This document shows, in pieces, positions 37,902 to 62,627 of a stretch of DNA of 64,000 nucleotides. How positions within the stretch are numbered: the stretch's first letter is position 1; each line of letters begins with the position of its first letter. Below the pieces are notes generated by a model. It did no database searches, was not told the origin of the DNA, and worked only from the letters and a program-made list of their open reading frames with translations. The position numbers were made by a program, and so were the translations under genes. Origin of the DNA: Escherichia coli (GTDB lineage: Bacteria; Pseudomonadota; Gammaproteobacteria; Enterobacterales; Enterobacteriaceae); assembly GCF_044647545.1 (NCBI RefSeq), contig NZ_CP172818.1; one strand, 5' to 3'.

Positions 37902-38837
37902 TTATTTCACTTCAACCACATTCAGTCGTAACTCATCCAACTGATTTTCATCTTCTTCAGGCTGCCAACCCGCCGGTTGTAGAGGGATCTCTTCGCGATC
38001 AAACGCCAGATCACCCCCGTTAACCACTTCAGAACCGTGGGTAATGCCTTTGAAATCGAACAGGTTGGTATCGCACAGATGCGACGGCACCACATTCTGC
38101 ATCGCGCTGAACATCGTCTCGATACGCCCCGGATAACGTTTATCCCAGTCACGCAACATGTCAGCAATCACCTGACGTTGCAGGTTAGGCTGTGAACCGC
38201 ACAGGTTGCACGGAATAATCGGGAACGCTTTTGCATCGGCAAAGCGCTGAATATCTTTCTCGCGGCAGTAGGCCAGCGGACGAATAACGATATGTTTGCC
38301 ATCATCGCTCATCAGTTTCGGAGGCATACCTTTCATCTTGCCGCCGTAGAACATATTTAAGAACAACGTTTGCAGGATATCGTCACGATGGTGACCCAGC
38401 GCGATCTTCGTCGCTCCCAGTTCCGTTGCGGTACGGTAAAGAATTCCGCGACGAAGACGAGAACACAGTGAGCAAGTGGTTTTGCCCTCCGGAATCTTCT
38501 CTTTCACGATACCGTAAGTGTTCTCTTCCACAATCTTGTACTCAACGCCCAGTTTTTCAAGATACTCGGGCAGAACGTGTTCCGGGAAGCCCGGTTGTTT
38601 TTGATCGAGGTTGACAGCCACCAGCGAAAAATTGATTGGCGCGCTTTGCTGCAAATTGCGCAGAATCTCCAGCATGGTATAGCTGTCTTTACCCCCTGAG
38701 AGGCAAACCATGATGCGATCGCCTTCTTCAATCATATTGAAGTCAGCAATGGCTTCGCCCACATTACGACGCAGACGTTTTTGTAATTTGTTCAGGTTGT
38801 ATTGTTCTTTCTTACTAATTTCTTGATTTTCTTGCAT
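37902..38837 (-). CDS. ttcA: tRNA 2-thiocytidine synthase TtcA
   Basis: 311 aa ORF with PP-loop SGGKDS motif and paired CxxC motifs; its 5' end overlaps the prophage attachment repeat. Confidence 0.85.
38788..38830. repeat. prophage attachment-site direct repeat (attL copy)
   Basis: ttgttcaggttgtattgttctttcttactaatttcttgatttt, identical to 61887-61929. Confidence 0.75.
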
Positions 38838-38888
38838 TATTTCAGTTCTCTGGTACTAAATGGGGCAAATTGGGGGCAAACTTTGCAA

Positions 38889-40119
38889 CTACGATAACCG
38901 CGCATTCAACATGGCTATCTGTTCGTCGTTCATGTCATCAATCCACATACCGTAAATTTCATACACCATCTGCGCAGTTTCATGCCCCATTTGGCTGGCT
39001 ATAAATGCCGGGTTCGCTCCTGCCGTCAACAGCCAGCAGGCAAAAGTATGCCGCGTATGGTACGGATTACGGCGGCGAATACCAGCACGTTTTACTGCTG
39101 CATTCCACCTTGCCCCCAAACTGCTTACCGAGTAATAAGGTTTTTGTTTTCCGTTACACACCCTGGGCATGAAAACAAAATGCAGTTTTTGCTTTTCGGT
39201 TCTGCATACTGCCGATAATAAAAGGTGACGACTTTTGCGATGATGCCCGGTCAGTTTGTATTGCTCCTTCAGTGCTTCAAGAGCAGGCTGCAGTAGTGTT
39301 ACTGTTCGGATCCCGGCATTTGTTTTTGGGGGACCGAACATATCGAGCCCTCGTCAGGTTTCTTCTGACATTCACTATTCCCTTTTCGAGATCCACATCC
39401 TCCCACGCCAGAGCTGCCAGTTCCCCGTGACGAAGTCCTGAGTAAACGGCAAAGTTCCACAAGTTCTCGCTATCTCCTTTTTCACTTTCCATTAATGCAT
39501 TGAATTCTGTTTTAGATAACGGATCAGGCTTTATTCTGTTCGCTGTAATTTTTTTACTCCTTCAAATGGTTTGGTTGATATAAATCCGACTGATACGCAA
39601 AACGCAACAGCGAACAGAGCAAGGCAATATCGTATCAACTGTGCGCACGGTTCTTCCTTTTTTGTTGGATCTTGGATTATCCAGGTAAAGCGTTTCTCCA
39701 TGCAGCAGTTCATTCCGGTAGTTTAAGATATCGCTATAACGAATATGTGATATCGGGGTACTTTCACAAATTATTATTCTGAGTGTTTTTAATTGTGATT
39801 TCGTTTTCTTCATTGTGTTTGTTGTTAACTCTGTCTCTTTAATTTTTGTCCAGATATCACAAAGCTCTCCGAACGTTTTTATGACTCTCGTTGTCACCAT
39901 TTTTGCCCCAGTGCTGGACTGGGGAAAACGTCTTAAATACTCAAATTCACCGGAGTTTATTTCATGAACTATCAGCGCTCTTAAATTTCCGGCCTTTTTA
40001 ATATTACTGTTTGTAATCTCCCAGCCTTTTAATGTTTCCCGACATCGTTTTCCTCGAAACATGAACCAGATGCGAATGTATCTACCTCTAATCTCGACAC
40101 CTGTTGGTAATTTAGACAT
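38889..40119 (-). pseudogene. intR: prophage tyrosine integrase, reading frame broken by at least two frameshifts
   Basis: Three consecutive minus-strand ORF fragments (39562-40119, 39277-39492, 38889-39341) together resemble one tyrosine recombinase (MSKLPTGVEIRGRYIRIWF...; ...LRHGELAALAWEDVD...; ...RHTFACWLLTAGANPAFIASQMGH...EIYGMW). Confidence 0.75.
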
Positions 40120-40120
40120 A

Positions 40121-40336
40121 TCATGAGTCTTTGATAAACTGATTTATCTTTGGATAGTTGTACCAGATAATCCCTCGTTTGCTGTCTGGCTTACCTAAAG
40201 GAGATACTCGTTTGAAGTGGAAGCCCTCCACCCAACAGTTCTGGCGGTATGCTTCAATTTGTCTGGCCCCCAGACCAGTGCGAAGCATCAGGCCGTATTC
40301 AACCATCCACTCTTCATTAAAGATTACTTGTGCCAT
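40121..40336 (-). CDS. xisR: excisionase-like protein
   Basis: ORF 40121-40360; likely 71-aa product from [15 protein letters not shown]...; immediately upstream of the integrase as in lambdoid int-xis modules. Confidence 0.7.
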
Positions 40337-40414
40337 CGCATCACCTCTGGCAGGCGCCAATGTTAGACTGAAATTGACGCCCGATGTTGATTATTAATAA
40401 TCAGCTATGAAGTT

Positions 40415-60012: not shown

Positions 60013-60603
60013 TTATATGTCAGGTGTCTGAAGTTTTGCTTTGGCTCTTAAAATGGTTTGCCGCGAGGTTTTGAATTCCCGGGCAATGGCACTTATACTT
60101 ACACCTGACTTAATTCGTTCGAATACCACCTGTTTCTGTTCTTCATTTAACACAGGTGGTCGACCAAAACGTTTCCCTGCGCCGCGGGCTCTTACTATCC
60201 CGGAATGAGTGCGTTCAAGTAAAAGGTCTCGTTCAAATTCAGCGACTGCTGAAATTACTTGCATCATCATTTTTCCTGTTGGACTGGTCAGGTCAATGCC
60301 ACCCAATGCTAAGCAATGCACTCTGATACCTGTTTCGGTCAGTTGTTCCACTGTTTTCCTGATATCCATTGCATTACAACCAAGGCGATCCAGTTTTGTC
60401 ACAATCAATTGATCACCACATTTCAGGCGAGCAAGCAACCGGTTAAAACCAGGACGCTCACTGGTTGCTGCTGAGCCGCTAATGTGTTCTTCGATTATTT
60501 GCTGAGGTTTGATTTTAAAACCTGCACTTTCGATTTCCCGGCGTTGATTTTCGGTGGTCTGATCCAGCGTTGATATCCGACAGTAAGCAAAAATTCGAGA
60601 CAT
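60013..60603 (-). CDS. pinR: serine-recombinase DNA invertase (Pin/Hin/Gin family)
   Basis: 196 aa ORF with N-terminal resolvase catalytic region ([15 protein letters not shown]) and C-terminal HTH. Confidence 0.85.
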
Positions 60604-60919
60604 AGTGAGACTCTATACGAAATTGGTGTTCATATCATAATGCATCTCAGAAAATAATTATGATTATTTTTGTGCATATTTGTATGTACACGTTCGAAAA
60701 TAAACGAATGCGTATGCAACCCCGTAATTTTGGTGAGACCCAAAATCGATTTTGTGAAAAAAGGCTTTAACTCGGTTTGTTTTTCGAGTTCCGGGCGGAC
60801 TCAAGGAAGAAGAATAGTGTTGCGTGTTATTTTAACCAGATTTCAAGTTGTTTGGTCGTGGAAAAGTGGAGCAAAATGTTGTTAAAGTGGAAAAATGATA
60901 AAAAAGTAAGTTTATTATA

Positions 60920-61153
60920 TTACATTTTACCATTTAAATTTTGGTTGTCTTTAAGAACTGATATCGCTGTTTGTAATAATTCTTTGTTATCCAGCCATGA
61001 TTTTTTCTTTATGTTTCCTTCAATGTAATCAAGCAATGTTCTGGTATTGATAGGTCTTCCCTGTTTTGCTACTTCCACTACAGCATCCCCTAGGATAATT
61101 CTTACTTCAGGAAGCTGCGCAGGGAACCACTTTAGGGTGTCTTTTGATTTCAT
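60920..61153 (-). CDS. ynaE: prophage protein YnaE (YdfK-like)
   Basis: ORF 60920-61258; likely 77-aa product MKSKDTLKWFPAQLPEVRIILGDAVVEVAKQGRPINTRTLL... Confidence 0.65.
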   Translation of the reverse strand: MKSKDTLKWFPAQLPEVRIILGDAVVEVAKQGRPINTRTLLDYIEGNIKKKSWLDNKELLQTAISVLKDNQNLNGKM

Positions 61154-61882
61154 GAAGATATTCCTTAAAATATTATTGATTTTCATTGCGATATTGTATG
61201 TCTGATTCAGGATATGTTGACTTATACATCGGTTTTGTCTGGTTATTGGATATGCCAATCCCTAATTTTATTAGAGCATGACTAAAAATGCTGAATATGA
61301 TAAGGAGCGAAGTGATTATCAGTATGCTGTTCATATAGCCTCGAATTAGTAATGTGTTATATATGATATAGTTGACAATTTTTATCCTGGGTGTTCTTAA
61401 AGTTCGTAGATAAACATTGTCGTTTCAGGTATACAGGAATGCTAACAGGTGGCGGCAAAAATCAGGCGGTTTATGGCGCAAGCTGAAGTGGCAACTGCAA
61501 ACTATCTTATGCAGAGACTCTACACGGATTGGGTTTAAAAGTATACATAGATAACAGTTTTTATCTGAAGAAGAAAAATATCAAGGTGATATAGCCTATA
61601 TGCCTTTGATGCGGAGGAATGAATGTGATGGGAGTGATGTATCTGAATAGTTGAAAAACCGCAGTCACGTCGTATGCAAGAACGTGCTGCGGTTGGTTTG
61701 ACTTTGATTGAGACGTTTTGGAATTTTTTTCGGTGGCAAAAATGGGGCAAAACGCTGCAAAAGGGGCAAAAAAGGGGCAAAAAAAGAGTGGATTATCGTA
61801 GCTTATTGTTGTCGCTGATGATATTTAACACATTGAAAAATAAGTAAAATACTTATGAGTCAGAGAGTTGTGATTTTTGCCC

Positions 61883-61936
61883 TTACTTGTTCAGGTTGTA
61901 TTGTTCTTTCTTACTAATTTCTTGATTTTGCGACAT
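61883..61936 (-). pseudogene. ttcC: displaced N-terminal fragment of ttcA (17 codons)
   Basis: Minus-strand ATG at 61934-61936 encodes [17 protein letters not shown] then stop; parallels ttcA N-terminus [17 protein letters not shown]. Confidence 0.5.
61887..61929. repeat. prophage attachment-site direct repeat (attR copy)
   Basis: Identical 43-bp copy of 38788-38830. Confidence 0.75.
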
Positions 61937-62111
61937 TTAAAAGCGACTCAATTCGTTATATGGCATCAGAAGAGTATGCGTCATGCCGGAACGCCCAGCA
62001 TAAGAAATCTGATATAAAAACTGTGGCGTGTATGGTACGGATTAGAGGGGAAAATGTCAGCACATTTGCGAAATGAATCAAAAAGCCCGCAGCAATGTGC
62101 GGGCGTTAGTG

Positions 62112-62627
<516 letters not shown>

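What the first reader, a model, noticed from the sequence alone, without database searches (positions are those of the whole stretch)
61735..61795. Matching GGGGCAAA repeat array inside the right prophage end
aaatggggcaaaacgctgcaaaaggggcaaaaaaggggcaaaaaaagag contains three to four GGGGCAAA-like copies about 100 bp inside the attR core, in the same orientation as those at the left end. Together they bracket the 43-bp core repeats.
Basis: seen in the sequence. Interest (0 to 1): 0.5.

Follow-up and report, generated by a model that had tools for sequence, protein, structure and literature searches.

The report
Rac prophage integrase arm-binding repeats
The GGGGCAAA repeats at the right end of this E. 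coli Rac prophage are most likely the accessory ("arm-type") docking sites that the phage integrase uses to assemble its cut-and-paste complex: a known kind of element, not experimentally mapped for Rac in the literature I could search, whose motif and layout recur in many other phages.

Summary
The window holds the E. coli K-12-type Rac prophage (38831-61886) between two 43-bp core copies in ttcA. Three exact GGGGCAAA copies (61744, 61763, 61774) and a one-mismatch copy (61733) lie 105-154 bp inside attR. Two more copies (38862, 38873) lie between the attL core and the intR stop codon. All are on the same strand, and all five plus-strand GGGGCAAA octamers of the 64-kb window are these. On excision they would flank the attP core.

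They are best explained as arm-type binding sites for the N-terminal Arm-DNA-bind_2 domain of IntR. Ten integrase lineages (28-99% identity to IntR) show the same layout: a tandem pair 11 bp apart next to int, and one or two pairs about 200 bp away. Eight use TGCCCC; two Pseudomonas phages use TTCCCA or GCCCTA. Across diverged Rac-like elements the array is as conserved as the core, while the spacer decays. Published EMSA argues against XisR binding the array alone.

This is a new member of a known kind, and no binding was tested here. The same paired motif also abuts Firmicutes-type integrase genes.

The parts
61763..61781 (+). P-arm pair A: two exact GGGGCAAA copies (61763-61770, 61774-61781), 11 bp apart. 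Proposed IntR arm-type sites, the most conserved part of the array.
   Evidence: 95-100% identical in the five diverged E. coli Rac-like right ends and 84% in phage PHB10, against 49% for the spacer. It lies 198 bp from the P' pair in the reconstructed attP, matching the 197-211 bp seen in eight other lineages.
61733..61751 (+). P-arm pair B: GTGGCAAA (61733-61740, one mismatch) plus exact GGGGCAAA (61744-61751), 11 bp apart and 30 bp distal to pair A.
   Evidence: A second pair offset by about 30-41 bp is also present in PHB10, phi367 and CharmingMan. Homology among mosaic Rac-like right ends begins at about this position.
61754..61761 (+). Degenerate unit GCTGCAAA between the two pairs. Probably a spacer or a decayed copy.
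   Evidence: The unit is poorly conserved in PHB10 (45% in 61752-61762). Strain USMARC-49610 has one extra 11-bp unit inserted here.
38862..38880 (+). P'-arm pair: GGGGCAAA at 38862-38869 and 38873-38880, 11 bp apart, lying between the ttcA start codon and the intR stop codon.
   Evidence: The same position after the int stop holds a tandem pair in ttcA prophages of other species; the core-proximal ATGCCCC is present in all five loci inspected. The same holds in all ten lineages.
61887..61929 (.). attR copy of the 43-bp core (common sequence).
   Evidence: Exact direct repeat D4. It is the only part of the query retained in prophage-free E. coli.
38788..38830 (.). attL copy of the 43-bp core, inside the 5' end of ttcA.
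   Evidence: Liu et al. 2015, PMC4632033.
38816..38828 (-). Perfect IHF consensus AATCAAGAAATTA between the crossover region and the P' pair (H'-like position). The same sequence occurs at 61915-61927 in attR.
   Evidence: A GeF-seq IHF peak at Rac attL is reported in PMC8407004.
61826..61838 (-). Candidate IHF site (TTTCAATGTGTTA, one mismatch) between pair A and the core. Weak evidence only.
   Evidence: Such matches are barely enriched in the window (84 observed against 69 expected), so this is a suggestion only.
38889..40119 (-). intR, the cognate tyrosine integrase. Here it is a pseudogene split into three ORF pieces. The intact allele has Arm-DNA-bind_2 at residues 4-68.
40121..40360 (-). 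xisR (ydaQ), the excisionase ORF.
   Evidence: The EMSA is in PMC4632033.

Best explanation
The array is the P-arm set of arm-type binding sites for the Rac integrase IntR. The two copies at the left end are the P'-arm set. IntR is a heterobivalent tyrosine recombinase. Its N-terminal domain (residues 4-68) would bind GGGGCA units laid out as tandem pairs 11 bp apart, so that two protomers sit on one face of the helix. Its central and catalytic domains act on the core inside the 43-bp repeat. [quoted passage not shown] DNA bending (IHF at the consensus inside the core repeat, possibly helped by the phased A-runs of the array itself) would fold both arms back. Arm-bound protomers could then bridge to the core sites and form the recombination tetramer. 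The second, distal pair B may be used differently in integration and excision, as lambda uses P1 and P2. Shown: sequence, position, orientation, conservation, the layout across lineages, and the integrase domain. Inferred: actual binding by IntR, the bridging mechanism, the role of pair B, and the contribution of bending. In this particular window intR is frameshifted, so the sites could only be used by integrase supplied in trans.
Against: No binding, footprint or mutational data exist for IntR. The fold matches are modest (no Foldseek hit at E <= 0.001). The motif is also used next to integrases whose N-termini show no detectable sequence homology to IntR's (hhalign probability 1.8%). This leaves room for a reader other than Int, or for a structural role of the DNA. 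The two lineages with a changed motif are both from Pseudomonas, so host and integrase divergence are confounded. The Rac copies carry phased A-runs that would bend DNA on their own.
Confidence: 0.8

Rival explanations
1. The repeats are binding sites for the excisionase XisR (the recombination directionality factor). Such factors typically coat phased direct repeats in the P arm.
For: The units are directly repeated at 9-11 bp in the P arm, as Xis sites are in lambda (my own knowledge). XisR does bind an attR-containing fragment.
Against: By primer mapping, the AttM probe that XisR failed to shift spans 61596-61886 and contains the entire array. The same motif also occurs in the P' arm abutting int, which is unusual for an excisionase site. 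phiCTX, for which no Cox/Apl-type factor has been identified, still has the paired repeats on both arms.
Confidence: 0.06
2. The array is mainly an intrinsically curved DNA element: A4-A7 runs phased at 9-11 bp. It would shape the P arm or attract nucleoid proteins such as H-NS or Fis, without sequence-specific reading of GGGGCA.
For: Each Rac unit ends in an A-run and the units repeat at about one helical turn. Phased A-tracts are known to bend DNA (established knowledge).
Against: The A-runs are not conserved. VT1-Sakai, KPP5665-2 and CobraSix units are TGCCCCAT-type with no A/T-tract, while the GCCCC core, the 11-bp pairing and the position are kept. The P' pair has only A3 runs. Curvature may add to the arm-site reading but cannot replace it.
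Confidence: 0.08
3. The repeats are chance low-complexity sequence or replication-slippage products with no function.
For: There is copy-number variation by one 11-bp unit in strain USMARC-49610. The whole-window octamer count is only marginally above shuffles.
Against: Placement statistics give P = 6e-8. The array is conserved above its flanks. The layout recurs in ten lineages and in at least 120 viral contigs, against 8 for the control.
Confidence: 0.02
4. The repeats are part of a small protein-coding gene: the 57-aa ORF 61674-61847 that RefSeq annotates in some genomes.
For: It is annotated as a hypothetical protein, WP_001157926.1/WP_001157925.1. An open frame exists.
Against: The 5' third of the ORF is replaced by unrelated DNA in the EC93, VTB97379v and EDL933 right ends, while the array is kept. 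The 11-bp insertion in USMARC-49610 would shift the frame. The lysine- and glycine-rich product simply follows from translating GGGGCAAAA repeats.
Confidence: 0.01

Closest known systems
Arm-type sites of bacteriophage lambda attP (P1, P2, P'1-P'3), bound by the N-terminal domain of lambda Int
   Same: A repeated motif unrelated to the core, on both arms of attP and absent from attB. The tandem sites on the int-proximal arm lie a few tens of bp from the core, and the distal-arm sites lie about 100-150 bp from it. An IHF site sits between the core and the P' sites. The integrase has a three-strand-plus-helix N-terminal domain.
   Different: The motif differs (GGGGCA, against the lambda arm consensus as I recall it). 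The Pfam family of the arm-binding domain differs (PF12167, not the lambda-type domain). All sites are in one orientation and organised as 11-bp pairs. There is no biochemical mapping.
Arm-binding direct repeats of P2 and 186 integrases
   Same: [quoted passage not shown] That is the same pair-on-each-arm design.
   Different: The integrase family and the motif are different. The P2 sites have been tested experimentally.
Predicted integrase-binding direct repeats AAAGGGGCAAA / AAAGGGGCA in the attP arms of Enterococcus phage phiEf11
   Same: The sequence is nearly identical to the Rac units (AAAGGGGCAAAAAA). It occurs as direct repeats in both predicted arms and was interpreted as potential integrase sites (PMC12540744).
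   Different: The host is Gram-positive and the integrase is of another type. That paper's call rests on sequence inspection and a GGGC 'consensus' taken from phage L54a work, not on binding data or comparison across families.
IntBPP-1 subgroup of tyrosine recombinases (Smyshlyaev et al. 2021)
   Same: IntR carries the DUF3596/PF12167 arm-binding domain that defines this subgroup. The subgroup is exemplified by the putative integrases of BPP-1, Stx2a phage and Gifsy-2.
   Different: That study classified the proteins. The passages retrieved by my term search of that paper do not describe the DNA arm sites of the subgroup.

Membership tests
Arm-type integrase-binding sites of a heterobivalent tyrosine recombinase | The cognate integrase has an N-terminal arm-binding domain in addition to the core-binding and catalytic domains. 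| tested here: met
Arm-type integrase-binding sites of a heterobivalent tyrosine recombinase | A repeated motif, distinct from the core sequence, on both arms of attP and absent from attB. | tested here: met
   Copies occur at 61733-61781 and 38862-38880. There is no GGGGCA in the core or in the bacterial flanks 38600-38787 and 61930-62100. Prophage-free genomes retain only the core-side DNA.
Arm-type integrase-binding sites of a heterobivalent tyrosine recombinase | The sites are conserved with the integrase lineage and change as the integrase diverges. | tested here: met
   The motif and layout are kept in eight lineages at 35-99% Int identity. The motif is altered to TTCCCA (phiCTX, 31%) and GCCCTA (KT1, 28%). 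The array is more conserved than the spacer. Caveat: both variant lineages are from Pseudomonas.
Arm-type integrase-binding sites of a heterobivalent tyrosine recombinase | Direct, sequence-specific binding by the integrase N-terminal domain. | not testable with these tools
   This needs EMSA or footprinting with IntR residues 1-75. No such data turned up in ten literature searches.
Arm-type integrase-binding sites of a heterobivalent tyrosine recombinase | The sites are required for integrative or excisive recombination. | not testable with these tools
   This needs site mutants in an excision or integration assay.
Excisionase (RDF) binding sites | Bound by the element's Xis protein and confined to the P arm. 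| tested here: not met
   The published AttM probe (61596-61886 by primer mapping) contains the array and was not shifted by XisR. The motif also occurs in the P' arm.
Intrinsically bent phased A-tract DNA | A-tracts of 4 or more bases repeated in helical phase, with this property conserved in homologous elements. | tested here: inconclusive
   Phasing and A4-A7 runs are present in Rac. The A-tracts are absent from the homologous arrays of VT1-Sakai, KPP5665-2 and CobraSix. Curvature was not computed.

The most novel reading that the evidence does not exclude
A single arm-site code may be shared by the whole PF12167 (IntBPP-1) integrase subgroup, including Rac, 933W-type and VT1-type Shiga-toxin phages. 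The code is tandem GGGGCA units 11 bp apart, with one pair next to int and one or two pairs about 200 bp away. It is also used by a large group of Firmicutes phage integrases (pneumococcal, staphylococcal Sa2-type, enterococcal). The N-terminal domains of that group show no detectable sequence homology to IntR's, although they are predicted to have the same beta-beta-beta-alpha topology. If so, arm recognition in these integrases is far more conserved than core recognition. Two consequences would follow. First, attP sites and prophage ends could be predicted from sequence alone. Second, integrases of co-resident prophages (for example Rac IntR and Stx-phage Int in O157) could occupy each other's arm sites and interfere with, or assist, each other's excision.
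Probability: 0.35. Interest if true: 0.6.

Novelty: new member of a known kind. Interest (0 to 1): 0.4.

Why it matters
Rac is among the best-studied cryptic prophages. Its excision changes TtcA, biofilm formation and stress responses, yet only its core, integrase and excisionase had been defined in the literature I could search. Assigning the arm sites gives a full working map of attP/attL/attR and precise targets for mutation. The wider observation is that the same paired GGGGCA layout marks the attachment sites of Shiga-toxin phages and of many Gram-positive phages. This could serve as a sequence signature for locating attP and prophage boundaries. It also raises the testable possibility of cross-talk between integrases of co-resident prophages.

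Tried and rejected
- Rfam scan of 60500-62300: only a sub-threshold CssrB match at 61554-61691 (28 bits against a gathering score of 76), upstream of the array. There is no RNA explanation.
- Promoter and terminator scan of 61300-62150: nothing at the array.
- The RefSeq 57-aa ORF across the array: judged spurious.
- The inverted GGGCAAAAA at 61876-61884, abutting the core: not conserved in EDL933 or PHB10, so not counted as a site.
- IMG/VR relatives of IntR: nearly all contigs are trimmed at the int stop codon, so only five gave P'-arm sequence and none gave a P arm.
- phiNP (29% Int identity): int is followed directly by another gene and no attP could be recognised.
- vB_EcoS-683R6: a prophage record that includes host DNA, so it gives no attP.
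- Foldseek against the PDB: no hit at E <= 0.001.
- hhalign between the two arm-domain profiles: no homology detected.
- IHF consensus scan: apart from the perfect site inside the core repeat, matches are barely above shuffles.
- Ten literature searches: no description of Rac or IntBPP-1 arm sites. Only the phiEf11 paper mentions a like motif.

Full report
**Context**

The window is an E. coli K-12-like chromosome segment. The region 61400-62100 is 99.9-100% identical to K-12 derivatives and to strains AH65/AH62. Annotation of the matching records gives stfR, tfaR, pinR, a ynaE/ydfK-type cold-shock gene and ynaM, then an unannotated stretch, then uspF and ompN. On the left lie dbpA and ttcA, followed by a tyrosine integrase and xisR.

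An exact 43-bp direct repeat (38788-38830 and 61887-61929) delimits a 23.1-kb element. This is the Rac prophage integrated in the 5' end of ttcA, as described by Liu et al. 2015 (PMC4632033).

**Observation**

The quoted string is at 61740-61789.
- Exact GGGGCAAA copies start at 61744, 61763 and 61774.
- GTGGCAAA at 61733 has one mismatch, and GCTGCAAA at 61754 has two.
- Spacings are 11, 10, 9 and 11 bp.
- Two further copies at 38862 and 38873 lie between the phage-supplied ttcA start codon and the intR stop codon.
- All are on the + strand.

The window contains 27 GGGGCA hexamers on both strands. Six fall in the 500 bp of phage-side arms (binomial P = 6e-8). All five + strand octamers are in the arms. 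A three-in-50-bp cluster arose in 1 of 300 Markov simulations. The raw octamer count alone is only marginal.

**The reader protein**

The intact IntR allele (411 aa) has three Pfam domains:
- Arm-DNA-bind_2 (PF12167) at residues 4-68, E = 4e-26.
- A SAM-like core-binding domain.
- The Phage_integrase catalytic domain.

This places it in the IntBPP-1 subgroup of Smyshlyaev et al. 2021, together with the putative integrases of BPP-1, Stx2a phage and Gifsy-2 (PMC8138268).

**Comparative anatomy of attP**

Phage PHB10 (Int 69% identical) has an intact attP. Directly after the int stop come TTTGCCCC and TATGCCCC 11 bp apart, then a ttcA-5'-like core, then three to four TTTGCCCC units about 200 bp further on.

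I assembled attP regions for ten lineages: Rac, PHB10, a 933W-like wrbA phage, VT1-Sakai (yehV), Klebsiella KPP5665-2, Enterobacter CobraSix, E. coli CharmingMan, Aeromonas pAEv1818, phiCTX and Pseudomonas KT1 (28-99% Int identity). Two results stand out.
- An unbiased 6-mer count put TGCCCC/GCCCCA first in eight lineages. TTCCCA was among the leading words in phiCTX (GGTAAT was more frequent there), and GCCCTA-type words led in KT1.
- Every lineage has a tandem pair 11 bp apart at or overlapping the int 3' end, and one or two pairs in the other arm. First-to-first distances are 197-211 bp (173 in phiCTX). There are almost no reverse-strand copies.

The phiCTX pairs flank the attP core annotated in the GenBank record.

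Rac, PHB10, the 933W-like phage and CharmingMan have a second distal pair offset by about 30-41 bp. This matches Rac's 61733/61744 pair relative to its 61763/61774 pair. ttcA prophages from other species (Int 65-71% identical) keep the P' pair; the core-proximal ATGCCCC unit is present in all five loci inspected.

**Conservation within E. coli**

Seven right ends were aligned.
- Homology between mosaic Rac-like elements (EC93, VTB97379v, EDL933 CP-933R) begins at about the distal end of the array. The DNA upstream is unrelated.
- In EDL933 the array is 92% identical, against 68% for the 101-bp spacer.
- In PHB10 pair A is 84% and the core 86% identical, against 49% for the spacer and 20% upstream.
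- One strain carries an extra 11-bp unit.
- The inverted GGGCAAAAA next to the core (61876-61884) is not conserved.

**A database-wide test**

I scanned IMG/VR for the four-site pattern: TGCCCC, 5 bases, TGCCCC, 178-208 bases, TGCCCC, 5 bases, TGCCCC. A permuted hexamer in the same frame found 8 loci.
- In 93 of the 120 loci, an ORF of at least 120 aa ends within 150 bp upstream of the first pair on the same strand.
- Seventeen of these are IntR-family integrases.
- Fifty-nine form one cluster of integrases of about 380 aa from low-GC contigs. Most of these genes stop 1-7 bp before the first unit.
- About 19 further loci have an integrase on the other strand whose 3' end abuts the far end of the pattern.

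The N-terminal domain of the low-GC cluster is found in pneumococcal, staphylococcal Sa2-type, lactococcal, enterococcal and Listeria phages. It has no Pfam arm-domain hit and no detectable profile similarity to the IntR family (hhalign probability 1.8%). It is nevertheless predicted with the same beta-beta-beta-alpha topology (pLDDT 91). The fold search for it was non-specific.

A 2025 paper on Enterococcus phage phiEf11 had already pointed out AAAGGGGCAAA and AAAGGGGCA direct repeats in the two attP arms as potential integrase sites (PMC12540744).

**Accessory factors**

A perfect IHF consensus lies at 38816-38828 (and at 61915-61927), inside the core repeat and between the probable crossover region and the P' pair. 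Kasho et al. reported an in-vivo IHF peak at this consensus in Rac attL (PMC8407004). A one-mismatch site at 61826-61838 lies between pair A and the core, but such matches are not enriched in the window.

Liu et al. found that XisR shifts an AttR probe but not an AttM probe. Mapping their primers puts AttM at 61596-61886, which contains the entire array, and AttR at 61717-62010. XisR alone therefore does not bind the array.

**Interpretation**

The best explanation is that the array is the P-arm set of IntR arm-type sites and the left-end copies are the P' set. The mechanism is as in lambda and P2. N-terminal domains dock on the arm sites. IHF, and perhaps the phased A-runs of the Rac units, bend the arms. 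The catalytic domains are thereby delivered to the core.

[quoted passage not shown] This is the same design.

The steps shown here are sequence, position, conservation, layout and the integrase domain. Binding, bridging, the division of labour between pairs A and B, and any contribution from curvature are inferred.

Rivals:
- XisR sites: contradicted by the EMSA and by the motif's presence on both arms.
- Pure curvature: the A-runs are not conserved in VT1-Sakai, KPP5665-2 or CobraSix.
- Chance: contradicted by the statistics and the comparative data.
- A small ORF: its 5' part is not conserved.

**Caveats**

- intR in this window is a pseudogene with 22 clustered substitutions and indels. 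Here the sites could act only with integrase supplied in trans.
- The two lineages with an altered motif are both from Pseudomonas, so integrase divergence and host are confounded.
- Integrases with sequence-unrelated N-termini use the same motif. This leaves a small possibility that something other than Int reads it.

**Verdict**

It is a new, previously unmapped member of a well-known kind of element. The breadth of the GGGGCA-pair layout across integrase families is the more interesting by-product and deserves experimental testing.

Noticed in passing
window 38889-40119 (minus strand): intR is a pseudogene in this window. Twenty-two clustered substitutions and small indels between 39204 and 39632, relative to an intact allele, split it into three ORF pieces. 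The best E. coli match is only 98.7% here, whereas the right end is 100% identical to other strains.
   Followed up: partly
window 62005-62085 (minus strand), in the bacterial flank right of attR: There is a relic of an IntR-like integrase C-terminal box (KCADIFPSNPYHTRHSF, against KRAGIRRRNPYHTRHTF in IntR). It is also visible as DNA repeat D3 (39042-39092 against 62017-62067, 76%). It suggests that an older integrase gene decayed beside the ttcA attachment site. Almost all E. coli genomes matched a query containing this flank (61400-62100), but I did not test whether those matches lie in the flank itself.
   Followed up: partly
window 61674-61847 (+): RefSeq annotates a 57-aa hypothetical protein (WP_001157926.1/WP_001157925.1) across the repeat array in some genomes. 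Its 5' part is replaced by unrelated DNA in other Rac-like right ends, so it is probably an annotation artefact.
   Followed up: yes
L089/L092 (VT1-Sakai), L093, L094, L008, L097: the P-arm side of the core: The Stx-type and related attP regions share a roughly 25-bp block, AAAATCGACaAAGATCGTCCAaGAGCg, next to the core. Rac and PHB10 lack it. It could be a binding site for their different excisionase or for a host factor.
   Followed up: no
L099 (E. coli USMARC-49610), aligned to window 61752-61762: This strain has one extra 11-bp unit (AAAAGGGGCAA) in the array, so copy number varies by whole units.
   Followed up: no
window 61647-61697 and 61554-61691: An imperfect hairpin (AACCGCAG..CTGCGGTT) lies just upstream of the array, and a sub-threshold Rfam match to the Shigella sRNA CssrB overlaps it (28 bits against a gathering score of 76, E = 0.003). 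This segment is not conserved in other Rac-like right ends.
   Followed up: partly
L104-L223 (IMG/VR loci from the pattern scan): The total span of the four-site pattern clusters at about 213-215, 223-225 and 231-233 bp, roughly one helical turn apart. In about 19 loci the integrase gene lies on the opposite strand at the far end of the pattern. Both points may reflect a few abundant lineages rather than a general rule.
   Followed up: partly
L224-L231 (control scan): The permuted control hexamer (CCGCTC), placed in the same four-site frame, still found 8 viral contigs. These were not inspected and might themselves be attachment sites of another integrase group.
   Followed up: no
window 38831-38880: In the lysogen the P' pair sits 17-35 bp upstream of the phage-supplied ttcA start codon. 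Integrase bound there could also affect ttcA expression.
   Followed up: no
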